The notes: generated by a model from the letters alone, not told the origin. A stretch of 64,000 bases of DNA from Phoronis australis (GCA_002633005.1 NMRA01000686.1:62001-126000); one strand, 5' to 3'; shown: positions 34,905-62,232, numbered from the stretch's first letter. Numbers and translations: made by a program.

Positions 34905-35216
34905 CTACTTGGGGCGTCCTCCGGGGAAGATACGGTGACACAAGTTGGCGTCTTGCTGATAAATAAAATCATAGATGCACTCTACTCTCACTCCTTGCTC
35001 AACGGTATCCAGATGGAATTGACCTGGTGGCAACACTATATTATGTCCGCTCGTGTGCATGACAGCCAAACACGCCTCCTGTTGGTCGTCAGCTACAAAC
35101 CCTGGGCTTCCTGAGCTGCCGGGTCCGAACCTTGAACTGGATTGGTAAAGCACTCGACGTCTGTCAGCTAATGTCTTGTACGTTTCGTTGTTAGAATGTG
35201 TGTATAGTTGAAGAAG
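34905..35216 (-). CDS. Terminal exon of the ankyrin/FAM111-like serine protease (catalytic Ser)
   Basis: Phase-0 acceptor matches the phase-0 donor at 36503; RRVLYQSSSRFGPGSSGSPGF...AVMHTSG...VEQGV matches the FAM111/Trypsin_2 C-terminal barrel. Confidence 0.9.
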   Translation of the reverse strand, partial: LLQLYTHSNNETYKTLADRRRVLYQSSSRFGPGSSGSPGFVADDQQEACLAVMHTSGHNIVLPPGQFHLDTVEQGVRVECIYDFIYQQDANLCHRIFPGGRPK

Positions 35217-36502
35217 CTGCAATTGTAATAAACTGAATCAAAAAAACGGTGTCTTATACGAATGACTGCCACCCATCCATTGCCACGTTTTGAACACACT
35301 AGCTCATGCACTGATATATACGCTGTACCCGTCTCGTGTCAAACTTTTCTTAAACCTACTTACTGGCATGAAAACTGGTCTCAAATGGATTCCAACTCAA
35401 ATTTGATGTGATTTTGTACTTATATAAGTTAATTATTTAAAGTCGCTTCCAAAGCGCAAATCACTTGAATTTGAGCTTAGCCAGTACACAGCACTTATCG
35501 ATACAACTGGACTTATACCTCACATAAAATGGGCAGTCCTGTCAAGTCAACGTATTGTGAGATTAGGGATTTTTTTTAGAAAATTAACTTAGCCAAGTCG
35601 AAAGTTAAATTTCAGTCAATTTTAACATCAAACAAAAAAATTTCTAAAGTTTGTTTCACTGAAGAAAGACATCGTAAGTTTGTAAGATTTTGTCTTAATT
35701 TCGACTAACTTACCGGATGTAGAAGTCCCGAAATTGAAAAAAATCTTAGACTTAAGGCAGAAAGGAGCTTGGGTCGTTTACGTGGAAGGGGGCCGTGTGG
35801 CTGGTTGCATGAAACAGTATGAATTAGGGACTCAACTAAGGTCCCTAAATCTTTTTGCGTATTTGTGTCTTTATGGATAATATAACTAAAAAACTGAGCC
35901 CAGAGTCTATTGAAAATAAATAGGGACTCGGCCATTTACTTTGAGGTGTTGTGTGAAAAGATCCCCAATTATTTTTGATATTGACAATTCAGCGTAGAGT
36001 TCACTCTGGATTAACAGCAAAAGTTGACTTAGTAATGAAACTTAAACAATTTAAGAAAAAGTAATCGGTATTTTCACAAGAACAACATTACTCAGTATAT
36101 TTAGGGAGCATATTTGAGTCCCCATTTGGGACTTTCAAGCTACAAGGTGTTGGTCTCTAACATGCTCAGTTCTTTCTGAGAACGGAACAGTGTGAGAGGT
36201 AATAACCGGATGAACTCGATATTTACAGTTCATCATAGAAACTTTATACAGGGTTTTGTTTTGTAAAAATTAGAAAAGTTTACTGCCCTGTCGCCATCAC
36301 CCGTGTGGAATCCAAATACGAGTAAGATGTTTTTGTCAGATCGAAACACTTCAGTTAATTCTAAAAGCGCCGAGTCGTGCAGCAAACTAGCGGTGTCCAA
36401 CATAACTGTATGCGGAGTATTAAGTATTCAATCCCACAATGCATGTGAAAACGAGTGCAACACATTTTGTTTGACCAAGCAATAGAGTCACGCCACTTGT
36501 AC

Positions 36503-36828
36503 CTTTGCTCTATGCATGTCGGATAAGTGCTCAATTTTACATTGAGTATCCAAAACCTTCTCTTGACCGTCAGGATGGCCCGCAAAGTGCAGGTATTCCT
36601 GTCCCACGATAACTTTAAAACTAGTCAGTGCTGTCGGCAGCGAATGCTTGTTTAGCCTCTGACACTGATTGAAGGCTGCCGGAAGTGCAGCGTTGAAATC
36701 TAGATCCACGATAGCCACGTCGAGGTCATCGTCACAAGCTAAGACTGAGAGGATGGGCGCTGCTTGGACTGAGCTCATACATTGCATTAATGCCTTGTTA
36801 AAGTGAAAGAGAACAGCGTTGCTTCCGA
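36503..36828 (-). CDS. Protease exon with catalytic Asp (DDDLDVAIVDL) and GHPDGQEKVLDTQC
   Basis: ctctctgtttcag acceptor, gtacaa donor; LDxA and GHPxGxxKxxDxC motifs characteristic of FAM111-type proteases. Confidence 0.9.
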
Positions 36829-39800
36829 CTGAAACAGAGAGACAAAATAAATGATAGAGTACACTGTAGAAATCGGGAACCACACTGTGGTGCTACATGT
36901 AAATGGGACATCTCGGAGACAAAAGTAATTTTCTGAATATAGTAGCGCAAAATCGAACCAAACAGCTCAGGGGAAGCAGCCTAACGCTCTGCCGCCAGGC
37001 GAAATTCTGTACGTTAACTAGATTTACATGTACATATAGCTTATATTAAGAGCGTTGAAATAGTAAAGATACCTGCTGATATCATCGAATGTCTCACAGA
37101 CAACAGGGAGAATGGGCGAATCGAAAGAAAGTCAAAAACAAACATGGGATGTTATTGTTTCATAGCTACATGTATGATCAAAGTTAATAACTTCAAGGTG
37201 TCTAACCATTCCAGCAATAATCCTAAAGAGGCCGTCGTAAAACCGGCAATGAGGTGATTTACAAATCAAATCCAACTTGAATCGTTCAGTTAGTCCATGT
37301 TTTTGCAAAATATAAAAAGCTATGAGTGTAGGGATATTCAAACTAGACGACTGTATTCAAGTAATTTGTAAGTCCGCTTCGTGAGTGGTGATGTGGAGCC
37401 GGAAACTACATGGCACTGGATGAAGTATTTAGTTTGATGGGTCATCACGAGGTGACGATCACTACGAAAATTATTAACTCTAACAAGCGATTCTCTGAAA
37501 GTCAGTTACATCATACCAGGAAGAGATAAGCAGGGCATACCAATTTTGTACGCTACAGGCCAACTAGTCCAACCATCACTGGTTTTGGGTATATTATTTT
37601 CAAGTTTTGCATTTTAGGGATAATAGAGAGATTAAAATGGCACACGCAAACTCATATGGTCCCATGCTACGATGTTACCAGGGAATGACGTCACAACCGA
37701 AGAGGAGTTAATGCAGCGTTCAACTTCAAGCCATGTTTTCTGTCACCATTTTTTAATATAGGTCACGTGATGTTCTGATGCTGGTGTGGCCAACATAGGG
37801 ACGGTTGGTGGGATTGCACAGAACTCTTTCGTTCTTTATTCAGACCGACGAGTGACCTCAGATTTTATGAGCTTTGCTGGAATGAGGAATCATGATTTAA
37901 GAATTAAGAATTAAGAATTTTTATTTAACGTCGTTCGAAGAACAGATTGCCATTAGCCGGTTAAGCTAATTGTACGACGTTAAATTTAACAGAAACATGA
38001 AGAAAATGGAACTTAAGAAGAGCTTGACATAATGAGCTGCAGGTAGATGGGACAGGAATTCTGAAAAAGGGGGTTGAGATTTTTCCAGCTCATACCAAGA
38101 CGCAAAATACAACCTGGAATTTCCAACGTACGCGAACTGAGTATTCACACTTCTAGTCAGATACCTGTCAAATATAAAGCAACTCGTGTGAATCCGACCG
38201 TTATTGGTTTCTTAACAAATCAAACTCAATTTTCCGGGAATGGCCCTCCCGATGACTTGTCAACATGTTGCATGAACATGGGATAATGTATAATCGATCT
38301 TTGACGCGTTTCATTGGCTAATGTTTTTGGCTACTTATGAAAATTTCCATATGTGCCGAAGAAAGTTTCGCATCACGGCATAACACGTGATGAAACAAAT
38401 GACAGCGGTGTTTCTACTAACTCTTAAATGATTAACATACCATTTTTTGGTGGGAAAATGTTTATCTTTCGCTTAAGATGCCCTCTTCAAATATCCTGAT
38501 ATCTCACTGCGACACTGGTCGGTCTTGTTGTTAGAGCGCAAGCGAACCAGTGGCAGGCGATCATTACTTGGAAATATGCCTCTGAGGGTCTCTTTCTTTA
38601 TGGCAAAGATTTCAAACGTGACGATGGCCATCTTACTAATCGTCAAAGGGCAGCCACGTCTTTACTTTCATCTGAGTACTTTTTGAGTCGCCAAGAAATT
38701 CTCAAACAATTAATTGTTTCTAGGTCTACTTGCGCGACAGTCGTCTGTCGCATGTTGTTGCCAACGAAAAATTGCAGGCCTACGTCAGTGATTCAAGTGC
38801 ATGAACTTAAGCGTGTGCACCACTCCGCTGCACATCAAAAGAAAACAGCGACAGCCCTAAATGTACGTGTATACCGTATTGGCTCTGTTAAGCACCCTCG
38901 TGTCATTGGTTTATTTGACAATGAACTTAGAATTTCCCGGCGTCTATAAAATACCCGATTCTTAACAATATTTCCTGGGACCGAGGTAGCCCAGAACTGA
39001 TATTTTCGTGTTTTGATGTTCCCCATGTCGATGTTCACTAGGACCGATGTTCAATGGCCATAGCCAGCTATTGGGCAACTAAGTTGCGAAAAGCGAAATT
39101 GTGGTAACGGAAAGATTTAGTATTCTCTTCATGCACCTCTGCCATTTGTTTTGCTCCCGGACCACGCTGTAAACTAATTTTCAGACTCCAATAGAAAGAA
39201 TCTTGTTCCTGATGAAGTGGGCCATTAAAAACAAGATTATTGGGGGTGGCTAAAACTGGTACATTGAAGGTTTTAACGAAAGCCAGAACGTTAGTTTCTC
39301 GAAATGTATCATAATAACACTTCTTACTAATGCAGTCTTTCGATATCTTATTAATAAGCACTTACTGCTCTACTAAGCCTTCCCGTCAAAATTGGAGAAT
39401 TTCCAATTAAGACCCAACAGTTCAGGCTAGGGCCCGTCATAGCTCACTACAAACGACAGTGCGTATTTTGAAATTGACACGCAGCCTATGGAGTGAGTCA
39501 CTCTCATTTTACGAGAAATTCAGTTTTCAAAAACATACTTTCTCAATATTTGAAAACAAAACCCCGGCTTTGTTTTATACCTCCGAAAGAAAGTTAACAC
39601 TAGTGACATTCGTGTCGTTTTGTGACTGACCTATTTTTCCCATACATGGAAAGTGTCGGGAAGCCAACTTGAATTACCCCCATGGGAACCTGCACGGAAC
39701 TGAGAATTATTTCGAGGCTTTTCTTGTGAAATTTGCACTCAACTGACATGCGATGCGCGTTGTAAAACTAATAATCCTCAGTAATAACGCACGGAGTTCT

Positions 39801-41287: not shown

Positions 41288-41518
41288 GCGGATCACTGAG
41301 TGCTTTTACAATGTGGCAATTCGTCATGACGTAAGTTGGACCAACGCGGAACCCAGATCCCCATCCATATCCATCCGACCTTGCAAGTAGAACGACAGAC
41401 GGGAGCGCACGTGCTAAAGACTCGTGTAAGTGCGCCAACATCACCTTCTTATTAACATCATGGAACAGTGTGGTTGAGGCTGTGGGCAGCAATGGCGCCT
41501 GTACGAGTGGAATGTAAT
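41288..41518 (-). CDS. Protease exon with catalytic His (LFHDVNKK...SVVLL...GWGSGFRVGPTYVMTNCHIV)
   Basis: tttttcag acceptor, gtaagt donor; GSGFRVG...MTNxHV trypsin-like motif; phase 1/1. Confidence 0.9.
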
Positions 41519-41655: not shown

Positions 41656-41938
41656 CGGACAGCCTTGTATTCACACCCAATATGTCCAATAGGCCGTCGT
41701 TTCTCCGATTTACTTTCAGGTTGACGTCTGCTTCTCCGTCGGGGATAAATTTGCCTTTAGATTTGGTAAATTCTTCGAGTACTGCACCAAATTGCTCCTC
41801 AACCGGAGGAGCACTCGCTCCTAAAGTTTGGTCAGATGCACGTTCAATTGCTCCTCCGGCCCCACGCAATCGAATTTCAATTGCATGCTCGTGCTTTTTT
41901 TCCATTTTCCTTATATCTCGTTGAAGTTCCATTTGTTT
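41656..41938 (-). CDS. Linker/coiled-coil exon between ankyrins and protease (KQMELQRDIRKMEKKHEH...)
   Basis: cattttcag acceptor phase 0, gtaaat donor phase 1, open frame continuous with flanking exons. Confidence 0.85.
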
Positions 41939-42343: not shown

Positions 42344-42427
42344 CTTAAGGATAGTCTTCGTTCTCTTGACCTCATCTTTGCCAGCAAGGGAGGCTGTTCC
42401 GCAAACGTCCAGCGCAGTTTTATTGTC
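42344..42427 (-). CDS. Terminal ankyrin capping exon (DNKTALDVCGTASLAGKDEVKRTKTILK)
   Basis: tatttcacag acceptor, gtactc donor, 84 nt phase 0/0; KTALD ankyrin-end motif. Confidence 0.85.
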
Positions 42428-43519
42428 CTGTGAAATAGATTAATACGTATTTATGGTGGAGCACTGTGAACACCAAGAAGCACACAGAAAATAAAACCTG
42501 TCGGTGAATCGTATTTAACGAGACACAGTAAGAACAATAACGGTGACAGCATTTCAATGGACCCGTGAATGGGTGACATATTGGGCGCAAAGGATCTGAC
42601 GAACAAAGTTTAGATTTCAAAATCAATTGAAGGTGTGCTCCACAATGACGTAAGTCAGTTATTTAGAACACTAACTTTGCCCACTAAAGTTCACCAACAA
42701 CTTAATTTAAAACTCGATGTGAGAGACATCAGTTGGACAAATTTCAAATGTCGTGTAGTAAACGCTCACTTTTTTCCGATTCCTGGAGGAATGAAAACAC
42801 TGGACCCGTGCTTCAAAACATTTACAGGAATTTTGTGAAAAGTGCTATTTTGAACTTTTTTCAAAACCATAAAGTGAGCACGACCGTACCATTTCTTACG
42901 ACGTATATGTAAAGCTTAAGGTTCGTTTAATTTTCGTTACTACTTCACTCAAGGTAACTCGACCACAACCCTCTTTTTATAACATTGTCTGAGATCATCC
43001 TGATTTGTCCGTTGTTTTACACTTAACTTCAAGATGTGTAATAATCTGAGGCCGGGAACGTTTTGCCCATTGACATTGGAAAGAAGGTGCGCAAATTTAC
43101 GTAGCTAAGAATCTGCCAACACACTAAATAACGTGTCTGAATTTAATGGAGTTGACAATTGGAAGACTCGAAATCAGAATACATGAAACTCAAAGTTGAA
43201 ATCATCTCAGACAACTGTCAGTGCACTTTTTCAGTGTCAAGAATTTTCCAAAACCAATAATGAAATATGATCAGAATGAGTCTTCTCAGATTGGCTGAAT
43301 ACTTGCCACATGGCTAGGTTGAGTCGATACCTTAGGAAGCCAGTGTGCAAAGAAAGTATAGACAGAATCACAAGACAAACGAGTTCCCACGTGACCCGAG
43401 TTTCCGCCACTTGTAATTTAATTTACAACGACACATCGGAGGAGACGCGAGGTCACCGAGGTACTAGTAATATATAGTAATTATTCAGTCGAGAAGTTAA
43501 ATTTTAATCTCAACATACA

Positions 43520-43777
43520 TAGGCGGATTTAGGGGAGTGCAGCCCCCCCTTGATTGCCGCCAGCAAAATGAAACAGCAACAGCGTAAAGCGTGAGGGAAT
43601 ATTGGGAGAAGCGCAGGCTCAGAATCCCGTTTTGGTGATTTGCCGAACAAAAGGTCACAAAACCCGCTGCCGCAACTTTCGGGCCTCTGCTCCAAATACA
43701 ATCACGCTTTGCCCGATTCGCCAAGACAACGTCTTCGGATGTTGGGCCCCCCTTATGGTATCCTAGATCCGCCACTG
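43520..43777 (-). mobile_element. MITE (cagtggcggatctagg family)
   Basis: TIR ggcggattt...agatccgccactg; homologous to 14398-14697. Confidence 0.65.
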
Positions 43778-45428
43778 ACAAATGATGAGGTTTCTTGATG
43801 GCTCAATGCATTTTAAAATATCCAGAGAATTTTAAAACTACCTCACAATAGTCAACATATTTTATGGCACCTGCATTTGCGTTGTACCATTAAATCCAAG
43901 TTCACATCAAAAAACGCCACCCAACAAACAACAAACTTTATATCAAATTAAATCGTAAATTCAGTCGTTTTACCTGATAACTAACGGTAGACGGCGGTAT
44001 TGAAACTACCCAATGATGTAACAGGTTCTAAAGCAGTCTGTTCATCAGTTCACATCACGTTTATTCGTGTCAGCTTATCGCTTTAATTCATCGTTTAACA
44101 CCAGTAGGTCTTCAAACTTAATAGATTTTTATACATGTACGTATTTGTACGTACCGTAGCCTACAGAGTTCGTTAGACCAATTTACCACAGTCGGTTGCG
44201 GGAAATTGGGTTCTCTTCCGTGATAAATGCGAGTCATTTTTCGGTAAGATAGAGAGAGGAGAACATAACTGTAAGTTGTAAACTTAGACTTACGATTTTT
44301 TCAGTTCTAAACACTCAAAATGCTTGTTATCCTGCCTAGTGGATCGGAACCCGGATCCGTCCGGCTCGCGTACAGGCCGATTTGAAGGCATCGCGAACTT
44401 AAACCAAAGTTGGAAAGTGAACTTCCAGTCACGAAAAGATTATACTAGTGAGCCAAAGAGACGATGTGCATGTGATAATTTTAAGTCATGTTGCCCATCC
44501 ACACTACCGTCAGTTCAAAAGTTGTACAAAACAATGATTCGAATAATGTACTATATTTAAATAAAGATTACCCTAACATCTGGCAATAGCATATAAAACC
44601 GAGTTACTGTTTCACAAAAGTTTTGTGTCAGCTAACACTGAACTAACTTGAGCTCAAAAGGCATCGATGCCTGCTCAATTACTTTATTGTACCTAAAGCC
44701 GGTAACGAATTGATTCACTCATTGCTGGCTTCTCAATACATTTGCATCCACCAACAATCCAAAGGCACTACCGATTTTCCCACAAGACCTGGAATGTGTT
44801 GCTTAATAACACCGAGTACGTAATTTTTGTCATTACATGGGCAAATCACAAAGTAGTGCAAACTAAAAATCCATACACCTTTCAGTTTTAGTCCGCAAAA
44901 CACTAAAACAACCAAACGCACGCCAACAAACATTGCCGGAATTACCGTGACGGTGACAAGATTATGATAGAAACATCGGTTGTAGCAACTGTTCGTACTC
45001 TCAGTGGGAAGGACATGTAAACAACTTATGGAACGTACCCATATTCGGCGGTCAAATTCCATATCCACGTTCATTCAAACGGGGACGAATCCAAACTCAA
45101 GAATTGCAGTGACACTCTATAGCTGTGCTGTCTCAAGGTCAATTCTGTATTCACGCTCTGGGAAGCTCTGCTGATTGTTATTGATGAACATCAAGTTTTT
45201 GTATTACAACTTAAAAGACTCTTGATTAGATTATAGATTGAATTTCGTTACGAAAGTTGAATGCAATTTGCAATTGTTAAGTTTGAAATAAAGCTACCCA
45301 GAAAAAGTAACTGAGTATTTTACATTGCACCAACGTGTTTCTACAAAAGTGGTGTCATGCGGTTTAAAGTTTTAGACACGTCGACTTTTCCAGGAAAGAG
45401 ATTGTTTTAACGGTTCATGTGAGAAACA

Positions 45429-45569
45429 AATCCTACACTGGTCTCAGATTGATGAGGTGGCGAAAACCTCTTGGAAATTTTGTCGAAATCTCTCGGCAAG
45501 CCATAAAATTTTCACAAAATTTCCAAGAAATTTTAGCCATGTCATCAACCTGACACTCGTGTAGGATTC
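45429..45569. repeat. Palindromic MITE-like element
   Basis: aatcctacac...ttggaaattttgt / acaaaatttccaa...gtgtaggatt; related half at ~56230. Confidence 0.7.
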
Positions 45570-45844
45570 TTTATATATCTAATGAGACACACTTTGACGC
45601 TTTGTTTAAGTTTGAAATAAAAGCATTGCCGGTTAATTAGGGTGAGAATAATTCATTTTGAACCAGAACACATAGTAATAAATGTCAACATCGCAACTTG
45701 TAATCCTTACCTAGACGAGTACCCATCTGACAAAGATTTCACAGGCTATCAGCTCAAACCGGAATACAATGATTAAGAAAAACTACAGACGGAGATGTCG
45801 TGAACGAGCCGTAGGCAATGAAAGTCATGAATAGTTCCAAAACA

Positions 45845-45945
45845 GTATGCATGACTTGACACGATAATGGAAACGATTGAAGCTTGCGTTTGCTGCCACG
45901 AAATTCCGCAAGTGAAAGTTCTTTTCGATGAAATGCAGGCCACAT
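45845..45945 (+). pseudogene. Decayed P2X7-ballast/nanor-like Cys-rich fragment, probably from a Kolobok-type transposon
   Basis: METIEACVCCHEIPQV matches the MxTxxECxCCxEI motif; upstream frame broken. Confidence 0.5.
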
Positions 45946-47639
45946 TGGCATACGGAAAGGAGTTGTTTCACTGTCTCATACTAGGTATCAACGACGCACT
46001 TTCAATTTGTCACTGCTTTGAACCCCTTCCGAAGGATTTTGCCTCTCGAGAAAAGCGAAAACACGATATACATGTACCCTTTTTCATCGCTGCTTCATAG
46101 TTCGCACAAAGGGGATTCACACACCACATCCTAGCCGCACTCACTCTGTTTACTCACCTTCCTCATAGGTTAACTTACCATCTCTAGAGAGGTACATGTA
46201 AGATCGGCCGGATACAATGTGATGCAGAGGTAGACCGATCAAGACCGTAAACAAGACTATTTGAATCGGATGTCATTCTCCTTTAGTTTCAATTGATCAG
46301 GAAACACTACATCATTAGAACGTAACCTGTACATGTATACGTGTAGATACCGTGCCTACTTGTGTGATCGCTGTTCGCTGCCGCCGATTGCCGAAAATTA
46401 CTAAACAAGGCTTTACAGTAATCTTTTCGGAGTGTTGGTGAATTTATTACATGCTATCATTTTTGGATCGTTTACTTTGACACTGGTAATTTCTAATTAC
46501 ATGGCCACCCACTGACAATTAATTTACTTTGGTCATAACATAGATTTACACGCAAAGCTGCTGTTAACTGAGTGTGTGTTGGTATTGAAAAAATATGATG
46601 AAGACTGTGCATGTGATCAATATCAGAAATGTAATGCCACTTAAAGATAAGTCTCTTGAGGACTTCAGGAGATTGGTAGTTTCGAAACTGAAACTACAGC
46701 ATGATATAAATTTGGAGACGAACTGACGAAGTTGAAATTTATTATTCGAAACAAATGCAATTCAGCTTATTTAATTTTGGATTCGCAACACACCCGAGAA
46801 GACCAGTTTGCCTTGAGTTCCGCAGCTTTTGAACTTAAAAATTATTCTTTTTCTGTGTGGTGGCACTCGCAGTCTTCGTTTTAGAACAGCGCTAAAATTG
46901 ACTCCCAGGTTTGAACGGTTACATGTAGTTCATGGTCATGTTAATTTATTTCCTCTCAAACTCCATATCCAACATTTGACATCTACTTCGGACATATTTC
47001 ACGTGTATACATGTTAACTAAGCATTGTTTGCACGGACGAGAAATACAAACAAACTGGTCATTAAAATTTCAAGACCAATGTGAAAATATGCCTTCGGAA
47101 TATCACACCTCAGAAGTAATTTTAAATAAAAATTTCTGATAATTGTTTTTTGCTATCTTCCCATAAACACCGTTACCGCTGGTTATAAAATGTCCATCTT
47201 TGCATAGAGTGCTATCTGATTTTTAAACAGCATGAGCAATACTTTAGAATCATAATGTTAGTGCACTAAATCAAACGCTGTCCTTGTGAAGAAAGGTGGG
47301 GGTGTTAATGCCGCCCTATTATGAGAAATGGATCAAACTTGCGTGGTTATTTGAGCAGGGCGTAAATGAAAAATAATAATTTTCTGTGCTAGTGTGATCC
47401 ACCCAAAGATGACTTAGGTAATTCTACATGCACCAATAGTACCTTATTCTTTTTACTTCCTATCTAAATGAAACCTATAAAACAAGTTACTCAAGTACAC
47501 AGTCGATGTCCTCAATCGTTTTAGGTCTTTCACTGAGATAAAATTGATCTCATAGTTTTCCTTGCCGCAATAGGATCCATTTTCCTTTGCCAACAAGACC
47601 ACCATAACCATCATGAAGTCAGTGAAATCCCTTACAGAA

Positions 47640-50415
47640 TTGAACTGAAGTTTTTCGCTGAAAACTTAAGTTTTTGGCGAAACAACTTAAGTTCTTCCGA
47701 AAAAACTTAAGTTTTTAAAAGAAACTTAAGTTTTTAAAAATTAATTTTTTCGCCAAAAACTTAATTTTTTCAGCACAATGTTAAGTTTTTCAGAGAACTT
47801 AAGTTTTTTTCAGGTGTAAAACTTAAGTTTTCACAAATAAACTTCAGTTTTAAGTAATAACCTTTCATGAAAACTAAAGTTTTTATACTAACAAACTAAA
47901 GTTTTTCTATAACTTAACTTTATCACAAAACTTAAGTTTTAGTAATTTTAAAAACTTAATATTGCTGCTCAAACGTTGATGCAATAGAGAAAGAGGCGTC
48001 TGCAACTCGATATACTTTATTACGTTCATCTTTTATCGTTAATACATCGTATGACATCGGTTTCCATATCGGTTATCTGAAACGTTTACAAAAACTGTCT
48101 AAGTTACTAAGTCTAAACTTTATCATTAGCATTAACCAACCACCACGATATTGTTACACCTTCTACGTAATGTTTAATTAATGTCTAACGGAAACTGCAC
48201 TTGAGGAAATACAAACTCAGGAAAAACATGGCGGAATAAACCCCCAAAGTTCCAAGAAAGAACAGCTCGTATAGACAACTGTAGCACTCCGCAAAACTAG
48301 TTCACAAAAGAGAAATATGCATACAACAAGAAATCTGTAAACATAATAATTGACTACCAAAAAGCACAATGGTTGCAACGTAACAGCATGTCTAGGTCTG
48401 CATGATGATAGTCCAGTCTACAGCTGACAAAACGCAAACTACAAATGCACAGCTATCCAAAAATTCGGTATCTCACGATGAACGGTAACCAAATGTTTAC
48501 TTACAGCGTTTGCCTCAATAACAGTCTGGTAATCAACACACGATACATATGACAATCCACGAGAGAATAAGGCAACTGGTGCTTGTTCGGACGTTTAAAT
48601 ACTCCGCGAAAACCTAGAAAGCTGATTGGCCCAGACAGTATCTCAACTTACACAACGAATGGGAATAATACCACCGAAAGGGGGGTTTGCTTAAATCATG
48701 ACTTTACCCCGAGACAACGCCCTAAAATATAACTGAGGCACTAGGTGATTGAGAATGTCATCTCTAGGAAAATTGGGAAACTATATATGATGCACTGCCT
48801 GCCTTAACACTTAAGTTTTCCTGACTTCTTAAGTTTTTTCCCATTATATAAACTTTTTAGAAATCGGGTTAAAAGTTTTCCTGACTTCTTAAGTTTTTCA
48901 GAAAATTGGGTTTTTTCATATGTGGAAAACTTGAATTTTCTAAAAACTCTAAGGTTTCTATGTGATGAAAATTTACGTTTTCAACTTTTTAAAATTTGAA
49001 CATTGTGAGATATTTAATTTTTGTTTCGAAATTTTTCCCATTATTTTCCAACAAAAAGTTATTGTTAGCTCATGCAAAACCCATCATCTCACAAAAATGT
49101 TGCCCGAATGTTTACTTAACATTTATATAGATACAAACCATAAAACGACGAACGTTTAACCTGGTCAGTATAGAATTAGTGCAACCACGTAATCATTATC
49201 GCACGTCTTTGTGAATTTAAATGTAGACGAACATAAGGTGACCAACAGCAGTAAGAATGCACTCAATGTTAATGCCCTGAGAGTCTGACGTTGTCAGTAC
49301 AATGTAATCAATGGAACTCATGCAATTCTTTAAAAAACGTAGTTATTGTGCAAGTTTCCTTTGTGTTGAGTTGTATTCGTAAGGCAGTTTCAATCGGAAG
49401 TCAACTGTTTGAATTTTGTAACCGACAGTCAACTTCGAAGAAAAAGTCGTGTGTTGCCTAGCCCGCGACAATGAAGTTGATATTACAACGAACAGAGCCA
49501 GCAAGATGACATTTCAGAAGTTTTGGAAGTCTGGTTATGGCCAGAGAGCGTTCTAAGATCAATTGGCCACAATCGGTTCCGTGATTTCCAACGAACGTGT
49601 TAAGTTCAGTTGTTATTGTCAGCCACTCACGAGTCACGCTGTCACATACCGACATGGACTCATTCTGTGTGTGAATTATCCAAACTTCTAACGCGTAATA
49701 TACTTCTGGATGTCAATCAGAGGTACATGTAGCCATAACGTTCACATAAGGCTATTACTCTATTTTATTTATGTCTTCTGAGGTTGTGTCAGTGAGCATC
49801 AATGCAAGCGGGGGGGACAAGGCAAAGTATAATCAGTTCCCAAGTCGGTTGTATTAGCATTGGTTGTGTGTGGTTATGTCTATGTTCGTAGTAATTCTTG
49901 GAAGCTCTTGATTTTGAAATCTCATACATGTATCACTACAATAACTAACAAGGTTTACATGCCTCATCCACGCACCCATCCTAAAATATGGGGGGTGCTC
50001 AAATTTTGGGCATGTTGACCTTTTACTAAAAAACGGGGTATGTTCAGAGCTGTGCACAGTGCATTCCTAAATTACGGCTTTTTAGTTTCTATTTTTTTGT
50101 TTCTATGAGGCTGACCTTTTCATGCCCACTTCGGAAAGTGGGGGGTGCTCGTTCGAGCCTCCCCTGGGTGCGCGCATGTGCATGGTTCTCAAAATTAAGA
50201 ATCAACAAATTGAATGTAACTATTGTATTGGCTATTTTTGAAAAAAATAAGTTTTTAGAACTTAAGTTTTTGAAAACTTAAGTTATGAAAACTTAAGTTC
50301 GTTCCAAAAAAACTTGTTCCAAAATACTTAAGTTTTCGCCAAAACCTCAAGTTTTCGTGAATGAAAACTTAAGTTTTTCAGACCAAAAACTTAAGTTTTT
50401 CGATGAAAACTTAGT
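47640..50415. mobile_element. Foldback-like element with terminal and internal arrays of the palindrome AAAACTTAAGTTTT
   Basis: Arrays at 47650-47960, 48810-48960 and 50250-50415; internal part shared with 25715-26780. Confidence 0.6.
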
Positions 50416-51484
50416 TCATTTTTGCGAGGGATGACTCACAATACATTTGGATTTGCATTCTGTAAGTTTACAAAATCTAAACTGGGGCAGGTACATGTAC
50501 ACATTGTCTGTGGTTTCCCTTGAGCTTCGTTTTGCCCAGCTAGGGAGTGCGAAATAGAGCTTTAAGTTTTGAATTCGAATCTTATTAGAAGCTAAGTTTT
50601 TAAATGAGACCTTATGGGTGAAGTGTGATTTAGTCCACAATTAGGTGAGTACTAGGTTCTTGCTAACGGTTAAATTGGTGGCACAAAATTGAATTATATT
50701 AAATTTGTGGTTAATGAAATTCAAATGATGAGGAAGTAAGAGATATTTGTTTTTTTAATAAAACCGTGTTGGAGCGGTGCAAACAGACAGACACTGTGAC
50801 TGGAACCAAGCGGGAGTGTGCCTGTTGTACAGTGTGTTGATTACTTCCCATGTTGCGCCAGGTAAAATATTATCTAGCGTCACGCAACTGTTACCTTATG
50901 TTGATGGTGTGCATCATTTTTTTGTCATTGGTTATTGTGTTTTGTTTACATATCACGCTGTTTATTTTCTTTATAGGCTGAAGTACATTTTTCGCCGCTG
51001 TGATTGGGTTACCTTTAGTAAGCCAGTTCTTTCCAGTGGTTACAATGGCATTTGCATAGTCGAATAGTAGTGTGACAGGCCGGATATTATTACGTACACG
51101 TACATGTATTAGCCTATGTATGTTACGCAGGTTTTGGTGACTAGTGTTTCTCGTGTAAAGCGGCATTCGTTGACAAGATCTGTAATGCGAATCATGTGTT
51201 TTCCTCGGATGCTGGAAGTTTTATATTAAGCACAGACTGTTGGCCAAACTAATGTGACTGAGTATTATGGCATAGCATGTTGTACTCGTGTGTATGTACC
51301 TAAGTTGAGATCCCGTATACATGTAGTTGTTTAACGTATAGTGTCATTCAGCTGCTTGTTTGGCGTATACGTTGCGCGGTACCGGGTTCATAGAATAAAT
51401 AGTTACGGGTCGCAGTTAGACAGTTGCTTGTGCATGGTAATGGTTCCCAGTTGTAGAATACACTGTAGATTGTACGGGTTCCAG

Positions 51485-54353
51485 TTAATTACTCTGCGCC
51501 TGTAAGCGCAGAGTACTGTTGTTCCTGGTTTTTCTTCAATTTTATTCTTCTTATTCTTATTACTCTGTGCGTGTAAGCGCAGAGTACTGCTGTGCCTGGG
51601 TTTTCTTCAATTTTATTCTTATTCTTATTCTTATTCTTATTCTTCTTCCGACCAACTTTGAGGCTTAATAACTCCAAATTGGGTGCAGATACGGTCTTTA
51701 AGTTCAGCATATGACTTTTGACAGTATATAGATTTTGATTAGTTAGATAATCATATTCCATATTGAACCGGAAGAGATCGTTTGGTGCAAAGGTCGTATA
51801 ATTTTCAAAATGCTACTTCCCCTTTAGTTTTAAAGCTATCTTTTTCAAATTCAATGCACAGGTATAATTCAGCATGACAATTCAAAAAATTACTTTTCTA
51901 GGTAATCGGGTCATCCAATCAGGTGAAATAGATCAAAGGTCACTAGGTGCAAACTGAAATTTTGAGCTAGACACTTCAAATTGACAGGTCTGATTACCAC
52001 AGATAAATCAAATCGGAATCCAGTTTCAGGTCATCGAGTGCAAACATGGGGTCATTAGGTGCATTTTTCTTTTGAAAATTTGACCTTTTCAATCAGCAAG
52101 TATTCTGATGTGTCAACCGTTGGACAACTGTGATTCTCTGCGTTGAACACATTTTCCATGGGATTTGCAATAATTCTCCTAAAGAGGCTTAAAATGCACC
52201 GGATAAGGACAATTAGTGCAAAGGTCATGTAACGTTCAAAATGTTATATCTCTCACGTTTTTCAAGGAATTCTTTTCAATTTCAGCACACTGGTGTAAGT
52301 CAACATGCCAATTAAATACCCTACTTTACTTTGCAATAGGCTTAACCAATCAGAAAAATAGGTCAAAGGTCATAGAGTGCAAACAAACATTTTGAGCTAG
52401 AGACTTCAGAATTACGTATCTGTTTACTAAGTGCGATTGAGTATAAATTCATAATTTTCACGTCATTTGTTGCACCCATGGGGTCATTAGGTGCATATTT
52501 CTTCTGAAAGTTTGACCACTTCATTCATCTTGTATTCTGAAGTGCTTAAAGTAAAATAGCTGTGATTATTAGCCTTAACCACACTTTTAATCGAATTAAC
52601 AATTACTCGCTCATCGGGGCTCACAATGCACCGGAAGTGGTCAATTACTGGAAAGGTCATCAAAAAATTAATATGTAATTTTTCCTACAATTTTAAAGAA
52701 TCCCTTTTCATATTGGTGAACGGGTTGCTGTCAGTAACTTCCCATAATAATTCCAGTAATACGCACGCGCAGAGTCCATTATTGTCACGCCGTGACAATA
52801 ATCTTTCTAGTTCTTATTCTTCTTCCGACCAGCTTTGACACTTAATAACTCCAAAATGGTTGCAGGTATGTTCTTCAAATTTAACATATGATTTCAGGCA
52901 GTATATAAATGTTTATTCGTTATATATTCATATCCAATAATGCACCGGAAAGGTCATTTGTTGCAAACGTCATGTAATTTTCAAAATGCTACTTCTTTAT
53001 TTCAAAAGCTATTCTTTTCAAATTCGGTACTCAGGTAGAAGTCAATCATGCAAATTTAGAAATTCCTTTTCTAAGTAATCGGTTCATCCAATCAGGTTAA
53101 ATATGTCAAAGGTCATAAGGTGCAAACTGAAATTTTGAGCTAGACACTTCAAATTCACAGGTCTGATTGGCACAGAAAATCCAATTCGGAATGCGAAATT
53201 TCAGGTCATTTAGTGCAAAAATGGGGACATTAGGTGCATTTTTCTTCTGAAAATTTGACCTTTTCAATCAGCAAGTATTCTGATGTGTTTACCGTTAGAC
53301 AAATGTCATTCTCAGCATTAAACACATTTTTCATGGGCTTTGCAATAATGCTCCTGAAGACGCTTATAAAGTACCGGATAGGGTCAGTTTGTGCAAAGGT
53401 CATGTAACGTTCAAAATGTTATATCTCATACATTTTTCAAGGAATTCTTTTCAAATTCAACACACTGGTGTAAGTCACCAGGCCAATTGGATACCCTTCT
53501 TTACTTCGCAATAGGCCTAAACAATCAGAAAAAAATAGGTCACTGGTCATTGAGTGCAAACTAAAATTTTGAGCTAGAGACTTCCAAATTACATATCTGT
53601 TTACTAAGTGCGATTGAGTTTGAATTCTAAATTTTCAGGTCATGTGGTGTACCCAGGGGGTCATTTGGTGCATGTTTCTTTTGAAAATTTGACCAATTCA
53701 TACGTCTTTTATTCTGAAGTGCTTAAAGTAAAATATCTGTGATTCTTATCATTAAACACACTTTAAACCGAGTTTACAATTATTCTCTCGTCGGGGTTCA
53801 TAATGCACCGGAAGAAGTCAATTAGTGGAAAGGTCATCAAAATATTAACATCTAATTTCTCTTACATTTTTTAAGAATTCCTTTTCATATTGGTAAACGG
53901 GTTGCTGTCAGTAACTTCCCTAAACAATTTCAGTAATACGCACGCGCAGTATATAAATTTTGATTGCTTATATAATCATATTCCATATTACACCGGAAGA
54001 GATCGTTTGGTGGAAAGGTCATATAATATTCAAAATGCTACTCCTCCTTCAGTTTTAAAGCTAACTTTTTCAAATTCGGTGCACAGGTACAAATCAAAAT
54101 GACAATTTAAAAAATTACTTTTCTAAGTAATCGAGTCATCCAATTTCTCCTACAATTTTAAATAATTCCTTTTCATATTGGTAAACGGGTTGCTGTGGGT
54201 AACTTCCCATAATAATTCCAGTAATACACAGGCGCAGAATCCGTTATTGTCACGCCGTGACAATAATCTTTCTAGTTATTCTTATTCTTCTGATTCTTAT
54301 TCTTCTTCCGACCAAATTTGAGGCTTAATAACTCCAAATTGAGTGCAGGTACG
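51485..54353 (+). mobile_element. Tandem array of a non-autonomous Helentron (HINE/DINE-1-like) element
   Basis: 5' hairpin tactctgcgc-ctgtaa-gcgcagagta, (ttattc)n microsatellite, internal aaaggtcat-rich subrepeats, 3' subTIR gcgcagagt + palindrome attattgtcacg-c-cgtgacaataat + ctagtt; unit ~1.17 kb. Confidence 0.85.
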
Positions 54354-54354
54354 G

Positions 54355-55027
54355 ACGCAGTTTAGTTTTAGAGAGAAAATGGACTATTTTCAATATTCAG
54401 TTTTACTAAGACACAGGATCAAACCTAGCAAGGGCGTATCCAGGATTTTTTAAAGAAGGGGTAGGCGGTCAAGGACTTTTTGAAAGGCGGACCAAGTCAA
54501 CAATTTGAAAAAGATAGATTTGATATCACTAAGATCAAGGGAAAAAGGGAGCTCCGGACCTCGTGACCCCCCTGGATCCGCCTACGCGTAGACCAGTACG
54601 TGCTGGAGTGTGTCTGGCGAGTTTCTCAGAATACAACTGCTCGAGCAGGGCTCATTGTCGCAAGCGCTACGGATTTGACTTAAGAAAGCATCCTCTGATT
54701 CTTCTGACTGACTTCCACCTCCACTGTTCTCCAATTAAATGTTGCCGGGAAGGGGCCTTGCCCCCCATGGTCGCGTAAAATAAACACTAAAATGACACGG
54801 AAATAAATTTGGGCATTTATCATGTTACATCTAATCGTGAGCATGTTCTTAAATTACATTTTTCCTCATGAGAAAAAGCTTTTAGACCTTTGTCCTAAAT
54901 GTCTACACTCATTCTACTGGCGTATGCCATTGTATACCCACGTGTTCAAGGTTCCATTGAAGCACTCCAACAGCCGATTTCATACCTGAATATTGGAAAT
55001 AGTCCATTTTCGCTCTAAAACTGCGTC
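54355..55027. mobile_element. TIR element containing a nested ggcgtatcc/ggatccgcc MITE
   Basis: gacgcag...ttttagagagaaaatggactattttcaatattcag inverted against ctgaatattggaaatagtccattttcgctctaaaactgcgtc. Confidence 0.6.
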
Positions 55028-55089
55028 GCAATTGTACACCGCGGCATCGTTCAGTTGTACCTATACCATGCAAGTCTGACATATTTAAC

Positions 55090-55567
55090 AGTTAAACCTG
55101 GGTCTGACCAAGTCTAAAGTTAAACATAGTTTAAGATCTTAATACAGGTCTAAAGGATATAGATCTCGTTGGTGAAATGAAAACTGACATAGACCAGGTC
55201 TAAACTGGAGTTAAACCAGGTTTTACAAGACCACTGGTCTAAAAGTTATACCACCTTTATGAAATGCAGATTATCATTAAACCTGGTCTTAGTCCAGTTT
55301 AAACCAGGTTTAACTTTAAACCACCTTTATGAAATCGGCTGCAATAGTTTCTTTGTTGGGTTTACCCAGCTCGTTACAGTGGGGTGCCTTTGATACTTTA
55401 AACCTGGTTTTACTGAACCAGCTCGCTAGTCTAGCAAAACCAGGCTTTCAGACTCTTAAATCATGTTGGTGAAATGCAAGTCAGGTCTAAAACTACATCA
55501 GGTTTACGAAGATCAGGTTTAAGTTATAAACCTGGTTTTTTTTAAACCACCTTCATGAAATCGGCTG
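55090..55567. repeat. taaacc(a/t)ggttt-rich repeat, Harbinger-like MITE remnant
   Basis: Recurrent aaacctggt/accaggttt words and repeated ccaccttt/catgaaatcggctg ends. Confidence 0.5.
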
Positions 55568-56507
55568 ATGGCGTTTACAAGTAAGTCCAACTTTACCGCA
55601 AAACGTACACCATCAGGACTCGCGCGCACCGAATGAATAGCCTGAACAACGAGAAAAAAAAAACGCCAACCTCTCCTCTTGTGACAAATATGAGCAATTA
55701 AGAACGTTTCGGTCAATTTCAGTTTTTATTGGCGAAGGCAGACAGTTGAATTTAATGCAATATTTTATGCGCAAAAATATCCGGCAATAAATTTGAAGTA
55801 TATGTTAAATTGTATTTCAGTTCAAAGTTGGCGGACTTGGGTAATTGCATTATTCGGAAAAGAAGAAACTTGTCGCTGCCGAAAGCAAGCATGGGTCCTT
55901 TCCCAAGTGCATGACGTGATTGTGAAGACGTCTGGTGTCAGTTTTGCGAATTTACCATTAAAAACAGTGCTGGTGCAGACATAACAGAATAAATGAAACT
56001 GTCATGAACCAATTTATTTTAGTATTACGATTTTTGGGCCAAAAGTAAGAAATCTGCTTTTGTGTTATTTAGTAAAATAATTGATCACCGAAGTGGTTCT
56101 TGATGAAATGTTGATGCTGTACGAATGAATCATCAAACTCAACATATTGTGTGACTACTGCTCGCAAAAAGTTACAATGAGGTCCATTACAAAAAGAAGT
56201 TATATGGAGTTGAACAAAAATAAATAGAGAATCCTACACGACTCTCGTGTTTGTGACATGGGCAAATTAAAAATCTTGGACTTATCGTCAAAATCCCGAT
56301 GTACAGTTGTTTTTACGACCAGCCGAGCAGTATTGGTTTACGAAGTGTCCTGGGAATGCACATGCAGTGAAGAAGTGACTCTGTTTACTTTCACCAAAAA
56401 GGACATGTATTTTTGATGAGATATGTATCATGAGTGAATAATTCCCCAAAATCATTCTACATTTAAAACACATTCATTGCAGTCGAACTACAACACTCAT
56501 GCGATAC

Positions 56508-56609
56508 CTTGTTTACGGCGGTTACGTCACAGCTGTCTTCCATGGACAGAAGCTCCACTATCTCTGCATGTCCACCTGCTGATGCCTTGTGCAGCGGTGT
56601 CGCTCCCGA
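56508..56609 (-). CDS. Ankyrin-repeat exon (SGATPLHKASAGGHAEIVELLSMEDSCDVTAVNK)
   Basis: 102 nt, phase 0/0, cttacttcag acceptor, gtatc donor; GxTPLHxAxxxGHxxIVxLL consensus. Confidence 0.92.
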
Positions 56610-57870: not shown

Positions 57871-57969
57871 CTCCGCACGAACATTTACGTTGGCCCCGTG
57901 ATGAAGCAGTCGCTGTATCACTTGTGTATGACCCCGCTCTGCTGCCCTGTGTAGCGGTGTCTTGCCACA
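57871..57969 (-). CDS. Ankyrin-repeat exon (CGKTPLHRAAERGHTQVIQRLLHHGANVNVRAE)
   Basis: 99 nt, phase 0/0, tag acceptor, gtaatt donor; not in the ORF track, read from the sequence. Confidence 0.9.
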
Positions 57970-61509: not shown

Positions 61510-61677
61510 TACGCAGTTTCGACAGTTATCAAAAAGAAAAGCAGACTACATTTAATTTAACACTTTTATGGACACATTAGATTGTGAAAAACATCAACAA
61601 AATTTGTTTCCAATAAGTTGTAGTCATCGTTCTTTAAGCAACTAGTTCAACAAAACAACCTCCGTGTCATTAATTAC

Positions 61678-61776
61678 CTTATCAGTGACATTCACACTGG
61701 CCTTGTTGGCCAGTAGTAACTCCGCTATCCCTGTATGACCGAACTGTGCTGCCCTGTGCAGCGGTGTGCAGTCCAG
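61678..61776 (-). CDS. Ankyrin-repeat exon (LDCTPLHRAAQFGHTGIAELLLANKASVNVTDK)
   Basis: 99 nt, phase 0/0, catag acceptor, gtaatt donor. Confidence 0.9.
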
Positions 61777-62134
61777 CTATGTGATACATAATAGAGATAT
61801 GTTAATGGACGATCAACGTTGAGAGCAAATTAACATCCACGGGGAAAGTGACCTTCTCCCAAGGTCGCGTCAAAAAGCAGGGGACCTTTTTTGTTCAAAC
61901 AAATTAGGAACAGTTTAATTAACTTGCATTTTAATTCACATGTACAGGTGAGTAACACTGCCTCCGAGTCTATGGCGCTTTGGAGATTATCGAACGGAAA
62001 GCAGATGACAATCAATTTGACATTACTTAGGGACACTAGATTGTGGAAAATATCAACAGAAATGGTTCCACATCAGTTTAGTCATTGTAAACACCTAGTT
62101 CAATCAAACAATCTGTATGTCATTAATTACGTAC

Positions 62135-62232
62135 GTTATCATGGACATCAATTGTGGCCTTGTTGGCCACTAACAGCTCCACTATCTGTGAATGACCACC
62201 CTCTACCGCCCAGTGCAGCGGTGTCTGCCCCC
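62135..62232 (-). CDS. Ankyrin-repeat exon (GQTPLHWAVEGGHSQIVELLVANKATIDVHDN), 98 nt, one base short of phase 0/0
   Basis: catag acceptor followed by a G-run; gtacgt donor; full ankyrin consensus. Confidence 0.75.

What the first reader, a model, noticed from the sequence alone, without database searches (positions are those of the whole stretch)
34905..62232. Ankyrin-repeat array fused to a FAM111-like trypsin-fold serine protease: candidate sensor-protease
Seen in sequence: nine minus-strand exons give 4 ankyrin repeats + KTALD cap + helical linker + protease with an intact triad (TNCH, DLDVA, GSSGSP) and GHPDG..K..D..C. The splice phases are mutually compatible from exon 62232 down to the stop. 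Established: vertebrate FAM111A/B are intracellular trypsin-like proteases; FAM111A has a PIP box and UBL domains rather than ankyrins, acts on DNA-protein crosslinks and restricts viruses. Inference: ankyrins replace that targeting module, giving a repeat-sensor/protease-effector layout like intracellular immune receptors. I do not know this architecture as characterised. The segment LFHDVNKK...LARALPSVVLL parallels, from memory, the FAM111A FGKVTKN...LSDSVGYL region, which includes its self-cleavage Phe, so autoprocessing is possible.
Basis: partly seen in the sequence, partly recalled or inferred. Interest (0 to 1): 0.85.

Follow-up and report, generated by a model that had tools for sequence, protein, structure and literature searches.

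The report
Ankyrin-headed FAM111 protease gene family
An animal gene family, seen spliced in RNA, joins ankyrin repeats to a protein-cutting enzyme of the FAM111 type (an antiviral enzyme in mammals), and the repeats likely choose the target, which would make it a one-piece immune sensor and cutter.

Summary
The nine exons are real: AG/GT ends, matching phases, one open 543-residue frame. It encodes four Pfam ankyrin repeats, a cap, a linker and a protease with an intact His323-Asp368-Ser475 triad.

Stranded RNA from the same species label joins cap to linker, linker to His exon and His exon to Asp exon. Eighteen reads join an ankyrin exon to the cap, but that exon is a diverged sister of the window's fourth repeat. 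The exact 56508-42427 join was not displayed. Most reads come from diverged alleles or paralogues, so this looks like a small family.

The protease is FAM111-type. It scores 113 bits on a FAM111 profile against 0.7 on a DegP/Q/S profile, nests with amphioxus FAM111-like proteins, and grouping with Deg is rejected (p=0.005). The self-cleavage Phe position is kept; the dimer-helix valines are not. The 5' end is missing and exon 1 is one base short.

None of 16 FAM111-like hits had ankyrins, and eight literature searches showed no such fusion. The scan earlier noted a parallel ankyrin-NAL1-protease fusion on other DNA. The immune-sensor role is inferred, not shown. Verdict: new variant of a known kind.

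The parts
62135..62232 (-). Exon 1, ankyrin repeat 1 (98 nt, one G shorter than sister exons; the 5' part of the gene lies further upstream and was not found)
   Evidence: Pfam Ank 37.6 bits; AG/GT and phases; minus-strand RNA depth in this bin
61678..61776 (-). Exon 2, ankyrin repeat 2 (99 nt, phase 0-0)
   Evidence: Pfam Ank 38.1 bits; flanking introns 76-77% like those of exon 1
57871..57969 (-). Exon 3, ankyrin repeat 3 (99 nt, phase 0-0)
   Evidence: Pfam Ank 43.4 bits; flanks 64-71% like exons 1 and 2 against a background of 51+-4
56508..56609 (-). Exon 4, last full ankyrin repeat (102 nt, phase 0-0)
   Evidence: Pfam Ank 31.1 bits; minus-strand RNA depth in its bin; closest of the four to the ankyrin exon that reads join to the cap
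42428..56507 (-). 14,080-nt intron, free of N, holding transcribed repeats and no further ankyrin exon
   Evidence: the exact splice was not displayed
42344..42427 (-). Exon 5, ankyrin C-terminal cap (KTALD) and start of a charged, probably helical segment
   Evidence: covered by reads, joined to exon 6, and joined upstream to an ankyrin exon in 18 reads of run X4; calling it a cap rests on recalled knowledge of ankyrin arrays
41656..41938 (-). Exon 6, linker of 94 residues with no family match and many amino-acid differences among expressed copies
   Evidence: no Pfam or NCBIfam hit; splice joints on both sides; 15 of 23 listed differences change the residue, none makes a stop
41288..41518 (-). 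Exon 7: Phe273 (position of FAM111A Phe334), helix alpha-1 equivalent, first protease strands, catalytic His323
   Evidence: reads cover it and run on into exon 8 sequence
36503..36828 (-). Exon 8: catalytic Asp368 and the GHP motif of the FAM111/NucA-trypsin class
   Evidence: FAM111 profile E=2e-07 on this frame alone; its first 24 nt stand exactly in loose ends of 12 reads of run X4
34905..35216 (-). Exon 9: catalytic Ser475, His556- and Glu573-equivalent pocket residues, C-terminal helices, stop
   Evidence: its only non-repeat hit among 1.84 billion proteins is an amphioxus FAM111-like protein; the splice to exon 8 was not tested with reads
33208..33519 (-). Second copy of exon 9 inside a 1.3-kb duplicate; likely an unmerged second haplotype at an assembly gap
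   Evidence: 96% over 1,295 nt, with the partner copy starting right after the N at 34092; 11 nt and 4 residue differences, and no second exon 7 or 8

Best explanation
This is one spliced animal gene, of a transcribed family, that encodes ankyrin repeats joined through a linker to a FAM111-type serine protease with an intact triad, and the repeats likely serve as its targeting or sensing part in intracellular defence. Shown: the exon chain, the domains, the family of the protease, the splicing of cap to linker to protease, and an ankyrin-to-cap splice in a diverged copy. Inferred mechanism: the ankyrin array takes the place of the PIP box and UBL pair of vertebrate FAM111A and binds a protein, probably of a virus or other invader or a host protein that they alter. 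Binding would concentrate or pair the protease domains. The enzyme would then cut after hydrophobic residues in unfolded linkers, including its own at Phe273, which would free the catalytic domain to damage the invader's replication or kill the cell. Duplication of single phase-0 ankyrin exons would let copies change their binding surface while keeping the blade.
For: Exon chain and open frame; Pfam Ank on 4 of 4 repeat exons. RNA: in three raw-read runs all depth is from first mates on +, which in most stranded libraries means minus-strand RNA. Exons are covered 20-80 deep and introns 0-4. The cap-linker joint stands in a contig of X1 and in 20, 1 and 25+13 reads of X2, X3 and X4. One X1 contig bridges cap, linker and His codon. 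His-exon reads run into exon 8 (12 reads exact over 24 nt; 17 reads with 6 differences in 30 nt, all silent third positions by my reading). 18 reads put an ankyrin exon end on the cap. Family: 113 bits on a profile of 13 FAM111-like domains, against 54 for the best of 11 bacterial proteases on that profile and 0.7 for the model on a Deg profile. The profile's best PDB hits are FAM111A at 1e-48. The tree holds the model in the FAM111-like clade at 97/93, and joining it to Deg is rejected at p-AU 0.005. An aromatic residue sits at the Phe334 position in 13 of 13 homologues and in the model. Context for defence: FAM111A restricts viruses and may have had that role first (PMC9798293 sections 4 and 13), and excess activity triggers apoptosis (PMC7534640, passages). 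The nearest prokaryote-type relatives carry nuclease, PLD or TPR-sensor fusions (of 42 scanned: Endonuclease_NS 21, Endonuclease_1 7, PLDc_2 4, TPR-S 4). Exons 1-3 arose by tandem duplication, and at least three sequence classes are expressed.
Against: No function, ligand, induction or activity data. The exact 56508-42427 join and the joins among exons 1-4 and between exons 8 and 9 were not seen. Only 4 of 712 raw reads laid are 99% or more alike and 328 are under 90%, so most evidence speaks for relatives of this copy. The ankyrin exon in the reads is only 21 of 33 nt like exon 4. Exon 1 is one base short and no start codon was found. The dimer-helix positions V347 and V351 hold His and Ala, so the dimer switch of FAM111A may not carry over. 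The model sits on a long branch (1.8-2.2 changes per column), and in the 39-row tree the whole FAM111-like clade has only 77 support. Only four repeats are known, which is few for a variable sensor. Ankyrins are common plain adaptors.
Confidence: 0.55

Rival explanations
1. Same fusion, but a housekeeping enzyme: the ankyrins tether the protease to a fixed host partner or compartment (chromatin, a protein complex), as the PIP box and UBLs do for FAM111A, with no sensing of invaders.
For: The family is transcribed in 3 of 3 raw-read runs with no known challenge. The array is short. FAM111A itself works at replication forks (PMC9798293).
Against: Several diverged expressed classes and many residue changes in cap and linker (25 of 40 listed differences) fit a fast-changing family better than a single-copy tool. 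No PIP-like motif was found in the 543 residues. The nearest prokaryote-type relatives carry conflict-type effector fusions.
Confidence: 0.25
2. The family is functional but this copy is decaying or truncated: exon 1 is frameshifted and the reads come from sister genes.
For: Exon 1 is 98 nt and uses a donor 4 nt upstream of the donor motif its sister exons use. No start codon. 328 of 712 raw reads are under 90% alike. Long branch in trees.
Against: Exons 2-9 are open, with canonical splice sites and an intact triad. 12 reads match the exon 7-8 junction letter for letter. The missing G lies in a run of G, where assembly errors are common (general knowledge), and a phase-0 repeat exon can be skipped without loss of frame.
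Confidence: 0.12
3. Chimeric model: exons 1-4 belong to a separate ankyrin gene and the protease gene starts within the 14-kb interval.
For: The 14-kb interval is long and repeat-rich, and the exact join was not displayed.
Against: The cap exon is itself the end of an ankyrin array and reads join it to an ankyrin exon of the exon-4 type (6 of 11 residues identical to exon 4, against 0, 2 and 3 for exons 1-3). No other ankyrin exon lies between 56508 and 42427, and the interval has no N. Without exon 5, exon 4 has no cap or stop exon in view.
Confidence: 0.06

Closest known systems
Amphioxus FAM111A-like proteins (e.g. XP_035698175.1 = P0003, XP_066279198.1 = P0016, XP_066296259.1 = P0010)
   Same: Protease domain 28-29% identical over 238-278 residues (E to 1e-21 pairwise); same GHP, GSSGSP-x-F, MH-x-x-G and EQG motifs and the aromatic residue before helix alpha-1; nearest rows in all trees; multi-copy family.
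   Different: None of the 14 hits scanned nor P0003 has a Pfam ankyrin hit. By eye their N-termini share a 'LLSALLRDGRI'-type segment with the fish-like hit P0019, which is absent from the model. The model has its own 94-residue linker.
Human FAM111A (PDB 8S9K, 8S9L; MEROPS S1, intracellular)
   Same: Triad order and similar spacing (His-Asp 45 against 54, Asp-Ser 107 against 102). Phe 22 residues before the first-strand Ser, as Phe334. Equivalents of Gly539, Phe536, His556 and Glu573 are kept (residue roles from PMC10920703 passages). No transmembrane segment in the known part.
   Different: No PIP box and no UBL pair; ankyrins instead. V347 and V351 positions hold His and Ala; Phe537, Phe538 and Phe574 positions hold Gly, Pro and Gln. 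The mapping is indirect, through P0003.
Bacterial NucA-trypsin and TPR-S/EAD-trypsin conflict-system proteases (Kaur et al. 2021, PMC8195603, passages read)
   Same: Closest non-animal relatives of the FAM111 profile (82 loci, up to 90 bits); protease fused to nucleases, PLD or a TPR repeat sensor, so a repeat-sensor plus trypsin layout exists there.
   Different: The model scores 60 bits on their profile against 113 on the FAM111 profile. No ankyrin was found in any + strand frame of 150 residues or more of the 82 loci. They are prokaryote-type single-exon genes.
HtrA/DegP/DegQ/DegS (S1C)
   Same: Same fold class (Trypsin_2).
   Different: 0.7 bits on a Deg profile and best pairwise E 0.66; clade rejected; no PDZ domain.
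Ankyrin + NAL1-like protease fusion noted earlier by this scan (e1-9953082; unchecked AI note)
   Same: Same layout by that note: ankyrin array ahead of an intracellular trypsin-fold protease in an invertebrate.
   Different: Different protease family: no Nal1 Pfam hit on any exon at E<=0.1 and no NAL1 entry among the 42 PDB hits of the FAM111 profile.

Membership tests
FAM111 protease family | Trypsin-like domain with His-Asp-Ser triad | tested here: met
   His323, Asp368 and Ser475 align with the invariant H604, D648 and S747 of the FAM111-like alignment
FAM111 protease family | Protease domain closer to FAM111 than to other Trypsin_2 groups | tested here: met
   Profile scores 113 (FAM111-like), 60 (82 metagenome relatives), 50 (8 plasmid proteases), 0.7 (Deg); clade 97/93 in the 25-row tree, 94 with one extra 153-residue metagenome fragment in the 107-row tree, and 77 in the 39-row tree where model plus amphioxus has 95. 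Human FAM111A itself was not a row; it is linked through P0003 and the profile.
FAM111 protease family | Aromatic residue at the self-cleavage site before helix alpha-1 (Phe334) | tested here: met
   Phe273 lies 22 residues before Ser295; 13 of 13 homologues have F or Y at -21 or -22. Position only; cleavage untested.
FAM111 protease family | Hydrophobic dimer surface on helix alpha-1 (V347, V351) | tested here: inconclusive
   Ungapped mapping gives His and Ala; 12 of 13 homologues have M, V or L at the first site. Leucines lie one residue away, so a shifted register is possible. No fold was made.
FAM111 protease family | Intracellular (no signal peptide) | not testable with these tools
   The N-terminus is not in hand; ankyrins and the lack of a hydrophobic segment (max KD19 1.45) point to the cytosol or nucleus
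FAM111 protease family | Chymotrypsin-like activity and autocleavage | not testable with these tools
   Needs recombinant protein
Vertebrate FAM111A orthologue group | Tandem UBL-1/UBL-2 ahead of the protease | tested here: not met
   The region ahead of the protease is ankyrin, cap and linker; cap and linker give no hit to any of the 19 stored proteins at E<0.5. The unseen 5' part was not testable.
Vertebrate FAM111A orthologue group | PIP box (placental mammals only, PMC9798293 section 10) | tested here: not met
   No Q-x-x-[ILMV]-x-x-aromatic-aromatic motif in 543 residues (motif pattern recalled)
HtrA/Deg (S1C) | Clade with DegP/Q/S and PDZ domain | tested here: not met
   p-AU 0.005; frame ends 68 residues after Ser475 with no PDZ hit
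NAL1-type proteases | Pfam Nal1 match or NAL1 structure among relatives | tested here: not met
   None on single exons at E<=0.1 (single exons are a weak test); none among 42 PDB hits
Ankyrin-repeat proteins | Tandem 33-residue repeats with TPLH | tested here: met
   4 of 4 exons pass Pfam Ank
Intracellular immune receptors (NLR/STAND type) | NTPase switch between sensor repeats and effector | tested here: not met
   Only cap and a 94-residue linker with no family hit lie between repeats and protease; it may work like a sensor-effector but is not an NLR

The most novel reading that the evidence does not exclude
A lineage-expanded family of one-chain immune tripwires: variable ankyrin arrays, grown by single-exon duplication, recognise invader proteins and switch on a FAM111 protease that cuts itself free and shuts down or kills the infected cell without any ATPase switch. 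It would show that FAM111's first role in animals was defence, carried over from bacterial conflict-system trypsins, and that the mammalian replication-fork role is a late refit.
Probability: 0.3. Interest if true: 0.82.

Novelty: new variant of a known kind. Interest (0 to 1): 0.57.

Why it matters
The FAM111 review leaves open whether the protease began as an antiviral factor and says that orthologues without UBLs need functional annotation (PMC9798293 sections 11 and 13). An expressed family in which the UBLs are replaced by a duplicating repeat array gives a natural test: find what the ankyrins bind and whether binding switches the enzyme on. It also shows that the FAM111 catalytic domain is a portable module. 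Domain shuffling with ankyrins is common in marine invertebrates (general knowledge; examples in PMC8195603 passages), which keeps the surprise moderate until a function is shown.

Tried and rejected
No whole genome is held, so paralogues could not be counted in DNA. Word-based homologue searches with exon 9 (56 candidates, none scored) and exon 8 (277 candidates, none) among longer proteins found nothing; both are weak negatives. Single exons against the PDB gave only chance-level hits. Two of the three phmmer hits (P0001, a Giardia-type repeat protein; P0002, a bacterial repeat protein) were dropped as repeat artefacts. The 20-kb read lay was swamped by intronic repeats: 15 of 58 joints were shown and none was an exon joint, so it neither shows nor excludes the 14-kb splice. 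One search listed no holder on record as RNA; X1's kind is a guess, and X2-X4 came in by species label. The Atlas gave no result for the window's own exon; for homologue P0013 its top cluster was 'Protein FAM111A family protein' (0.97) and no ankyrin family was listed among the 8 rows shown. Viral contigs gave 2 distant loci without ankyrins. Look-ups of earlier findings by sequence returned nothing. No fold or complex was predicted, because the protease domain is split over three exons and no stored full-length record of this protein was found; the dimer question stays open. HtrA, NAL1 and NLR membership were rejected as listed. The silent share of 40 listed read differences in exons 5-7 is only modestly above chance (15 of 40 against 0.24, p=0.04; 40 of 135 rows shown), so it is weak evidence of constraint there.
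Full report
Observation. Reading the sequence around them and building the model by coordinates gives nine exons: 62232-62135, 61776-61678, 57969-57871, 56609-56508, 42427-42344, 41938-41656, 41518-41288, 36828-36503 and 35216-34905. All have AG acceptors, all eight introns begin GT, and phases agree at 8 of 8 junctions. The frame is open for 543 residues to the stop. Each of the first four exons passes the Pfam Ank cut-off, and a profile of the four finds no fifth in the window. The triad is His323, Asp368, Ser475. Three flaws should be recorded. There is no start codon. Exon 1 is one G shorter than exons 2 and 3 and so begins in another phase. The last exon is present twice, in a 1.3-kb 96% duplicate whose partner starts at the N at 34092; since exons 7 and 8 are single, this is most simply an unmerged haplotype.

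Is it one transcript? One contig set (X1, kind guessed as RNA) holds 12% of the sampled words of 34700-42450, and three raw RNA runs share its species label. About 18-19% of each raw run was read. On 41230-42480 268, 201 and 243 reads were laid, with all depth from first mates on +, which in most stranded libraries means RNA from the minus strand. Exon bins are mostly 20-80 deep, the intron 41524-41607 is at 0 and the intron 41944-42321 at 0-4. The cap-to-linker splice (42344 to 41938, 405 nt) stands in an X1 contig and in 20, 1 and 25 reads, plus 13 placed three bases off. The linker-to-His-exon splice appears with 31-33 diverged letters, the length expected for the start of exon 7, in the X1 contig and in 19, 27 and 13 reads. 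One 539-nt X1 contig bridges cap, linker and the His codon. Across the 4.5-kb intron, 12 reads of X4 carry the first 24 nt of exon 8 exactly, and 17 reads of X2 carry a version with six differences in 30 nt, all silent third positions by my reading. 21 reads of X3 and 19 of X4 carry a third, more distant version.

Upstream of the cap, 18 reads of X4 continue into the end of an ankyrin exon that translates as ERGCDVNTVNQ in frame with DNKTALD. This matches the window's exon 4 end (EDSCDVTAVNK) at 6 of 11 residues and 21 of 33 nt, and exons 1-3 at 0, 2 and 3 residues (exon ends; comparison by hand). In X4 the listed cap-exon differences at 42381, 42383 and 42413 are in 33 of 33, 33 of 33 and 36 of 36 reads, so one sequence class is joined to an ankyrin exon on one side and to the linker on the other. 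The ankyrin-protease fusion is therefore shown for the family. It is not shown letter for letter for this copy. The 20-kb lay was dominated by intronic repeats and displayed 15 of 58 joints, none exonic, although the bins holding exon 4 and exons 1-2 had minus-strand RNA depth (0.75-0.99 against 0-0.06, and 2.1-4.7 against 0-0.07). Only 4 of 712 raw reads are 99% or more alike and 328 are under 90%, so several alleles or paralogues are expressed. The joins among exons 1-4 and between exons 8 and 9 were not seen in reads.

What protease? A full HMMER scan of 1.84 billion proteins with exon 9 gave three hits. Two were repeat artefacts and were dropped. The third, P0003, is an amphioxus protein whose only PDB matches at E<=0.01 are human FAM111A 8S9K and 8S9L. 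The spliced model aligns to it at 28% over 250 residues, E 2e-15. A search with its protease region gave 16 relatives: 13 amphioxus, several named 'serine protease FAM111A-like', and 3 unnamed. Thirteen were aligned; three near-identical isoforms or duplicates (P0005, P0006, P0009) were left out. Their profile hits FAM111A at 1e-48 and everything else in the PDB at 6e-08 or worse. On domain profiles the model scores 113 bits (FAM111-like), 60 (82 nearest metagenome and viral-contig relatives), 50 (8 plasmid proteases) and 0.7 (E. coli DegP/Q/S). In a 25-row tree it lies in the FAM111-like clade at 97/93, among the amphioxus rows at 94/99. In a 107-row tree the clade has 94 and includes one 153-residue metagenome fragment. 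In a 39-row tree model plus amphioxus has 95 but the whole clade only 77, and forcing the model with Deg is rejected at p-AU 0.005. The model's branch is long, so its exact place is unsure, but no test favoured HtrA.

Features of FAM111A, mapped through P0003 with residue roles from PMC10920703 (12 of 14 passages read). The self-cleavage Phe334 lies 22 residues before the first-strand Ser; the model has Phe273 at -22, and 13 of 13 homologues have F or Y at -21 or -22. Equivalents of Phe536, Gly539, His556 and Glu573 are kept; Phe537 and Phe538 are Gly and Pro, as in P0003. The dimer-helix valines V347 and V351 map to His and Ala, where 12 of 13 homologues have M, V or L at the first site. No PIP-like motif and no transmembrane segment were found, and the cap and linker match none of the 19 stored proteins. 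So it is a member of the FAM111 protease family by its catalytic domain but not of the UBL-bearing vertebrate FAM111A group.

The head. Exons 1-3 share flanking intron sequence (64-77% over 100 nt against a background of 51+-4, maximum 61, in 292 random pairs), so the array grew by duplication of single phase-0 exons; exon 4 is older. Among the 40 of 135 read differences listed for exons 5-7, 25 change the residue, 15 are silent and none makes a stop: the cap and linker vary quickly between copies but stay open.

Mechanism. The most likely reading is that the ankyrins do for this enzyme what the PIP box and UBLs do for FAM111A, namely bring it to its target, and that the target relates to defence. 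The support is indirect. FAM111A restricts SV40 and poxvirus mutants, and the review proposes antiviral defence as its first role (PMC9798293: abstract and sections 4, 10, 11, 13 read). Viral inhibitors of it are reported (PMC11847056, PMC13640560: search listing and start of abstract only). Raised activity drives apoptosis (PMC7534640: 12 of 28 passages read). The nearest prokaryote-type relatives are fused to nucleases, PLD or TPR sensors (42 of the 82 frames, chosen among the longer ones, were scanned), the NucA-trypsin type of conflict system named in PMC8195603 (12 of 17 passages read; it does not mention FAM111). Binding, pairing, self-cleavage and cell death are all inferred. A housekeeping tether (0.25), a decaying copy (0.12) and a chimeric model (0.06) are the rivals.

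Novelty. No ankyrin was found in the FAM111-like hits (P0003, 14 more; P0006, an isoform, only by its precomputed domains and my own profile), in the 82 prokaryote-type loci or in the Atlas rows shown for a homologue. These searches were limited by length window, shared words and caps, and reached almost only amphioxus, so the fusion may well be on record in unsearched invertebrate proteomes. Eight literature searches (titles and abstract starts of the listed papers, 25 of 35 listed) showed no paper on an ankyrin-FAM111 fusion; only the review pairs FAM111 with Branchiostoma. Supplements and figures were not read, and the review's network of 866 sequences could include such proteins. Earlier notes of this scan describe an ankyrin fusion to a NAL1-like protease and immune-fused NAL1-type families in other invertebrates; these are unchecked leads that suggest the layout recurs with another protease. 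That the host is an invertebrate is inferred from the introns, the amphioxus affinity and an unchecked note on this genome.

Verdict. A real, expressed ankyrin-FAM111 fusion family, a new variant of a known kind, with a plausible but untested role as an immune sensor-protease. Interest 0.57.

Noticed in passing
window 32401-33688 and 34093-35378: 96% duplicate of 1.3 kb holding the last exon, meeting at the N at 34092; likely two haplotypes left unmerged, which would put heterozygosity near 4%.
   Followed up: partly
window 62233-62229 and 62134-62125: Exon 1 has five G where the sister-exon length asks for six, and its in-frame donor lies 4 nt upstream of the GTAATT donor that exons 2 and 3 use; error or real lesion unresolved.
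   Followed up: partly
window 51500-55640: Tandem and dispersed repeat inside the 14-kb intron, strongly transcribed (mean depth up to 262 in X4), with related copies at 95-686 and 1467-1815.
   Followed up: no
window 13007-13378 and 13807-14151 (+): Two open frames that read like exons of another gene; only weak Pfam hints (DUF3908, DUF7862 below cut-off) for the first.
   Followed up: no
window 8493-8957 (+) and 26096-26596 (+): Probable retroelement remnants: GIY-YIG-like (E 0.0055) and RNase H-like (E 0.023) frames, both below Pfam cut-off.
   Followed up: no
window 61800-61807: Several RNA molecules begin here in X3 and X4 with depth 16-22 beside, inside the intron between exons 1 and 2; retained intron, alternative start or paralogue reads.
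   Followed up: no
window 41770-41876: Eight reads of X4 skip 105 nt within the linker exon with non-canonical ends: an in-frame length variant of the linker in some allele or paralogue.
   Followed up: no
L084:2-460: A 153-residue fragment from a metagenome contig falls inside the FAM111-like clade, probably animal DNA in an environmental sample.
   Followed up: no
P0011, P0013, P0016 (amphioxus): Their N-termini share, by eye, a segment with the fish-like P0019, and P0011 carries precomputed PF26749 like P0017-P0019 (the family name was not in the Pfam copy used); this sits oddly with the review's statement that amphioxus FAM111 lacks UBLs.
   Followed up: no
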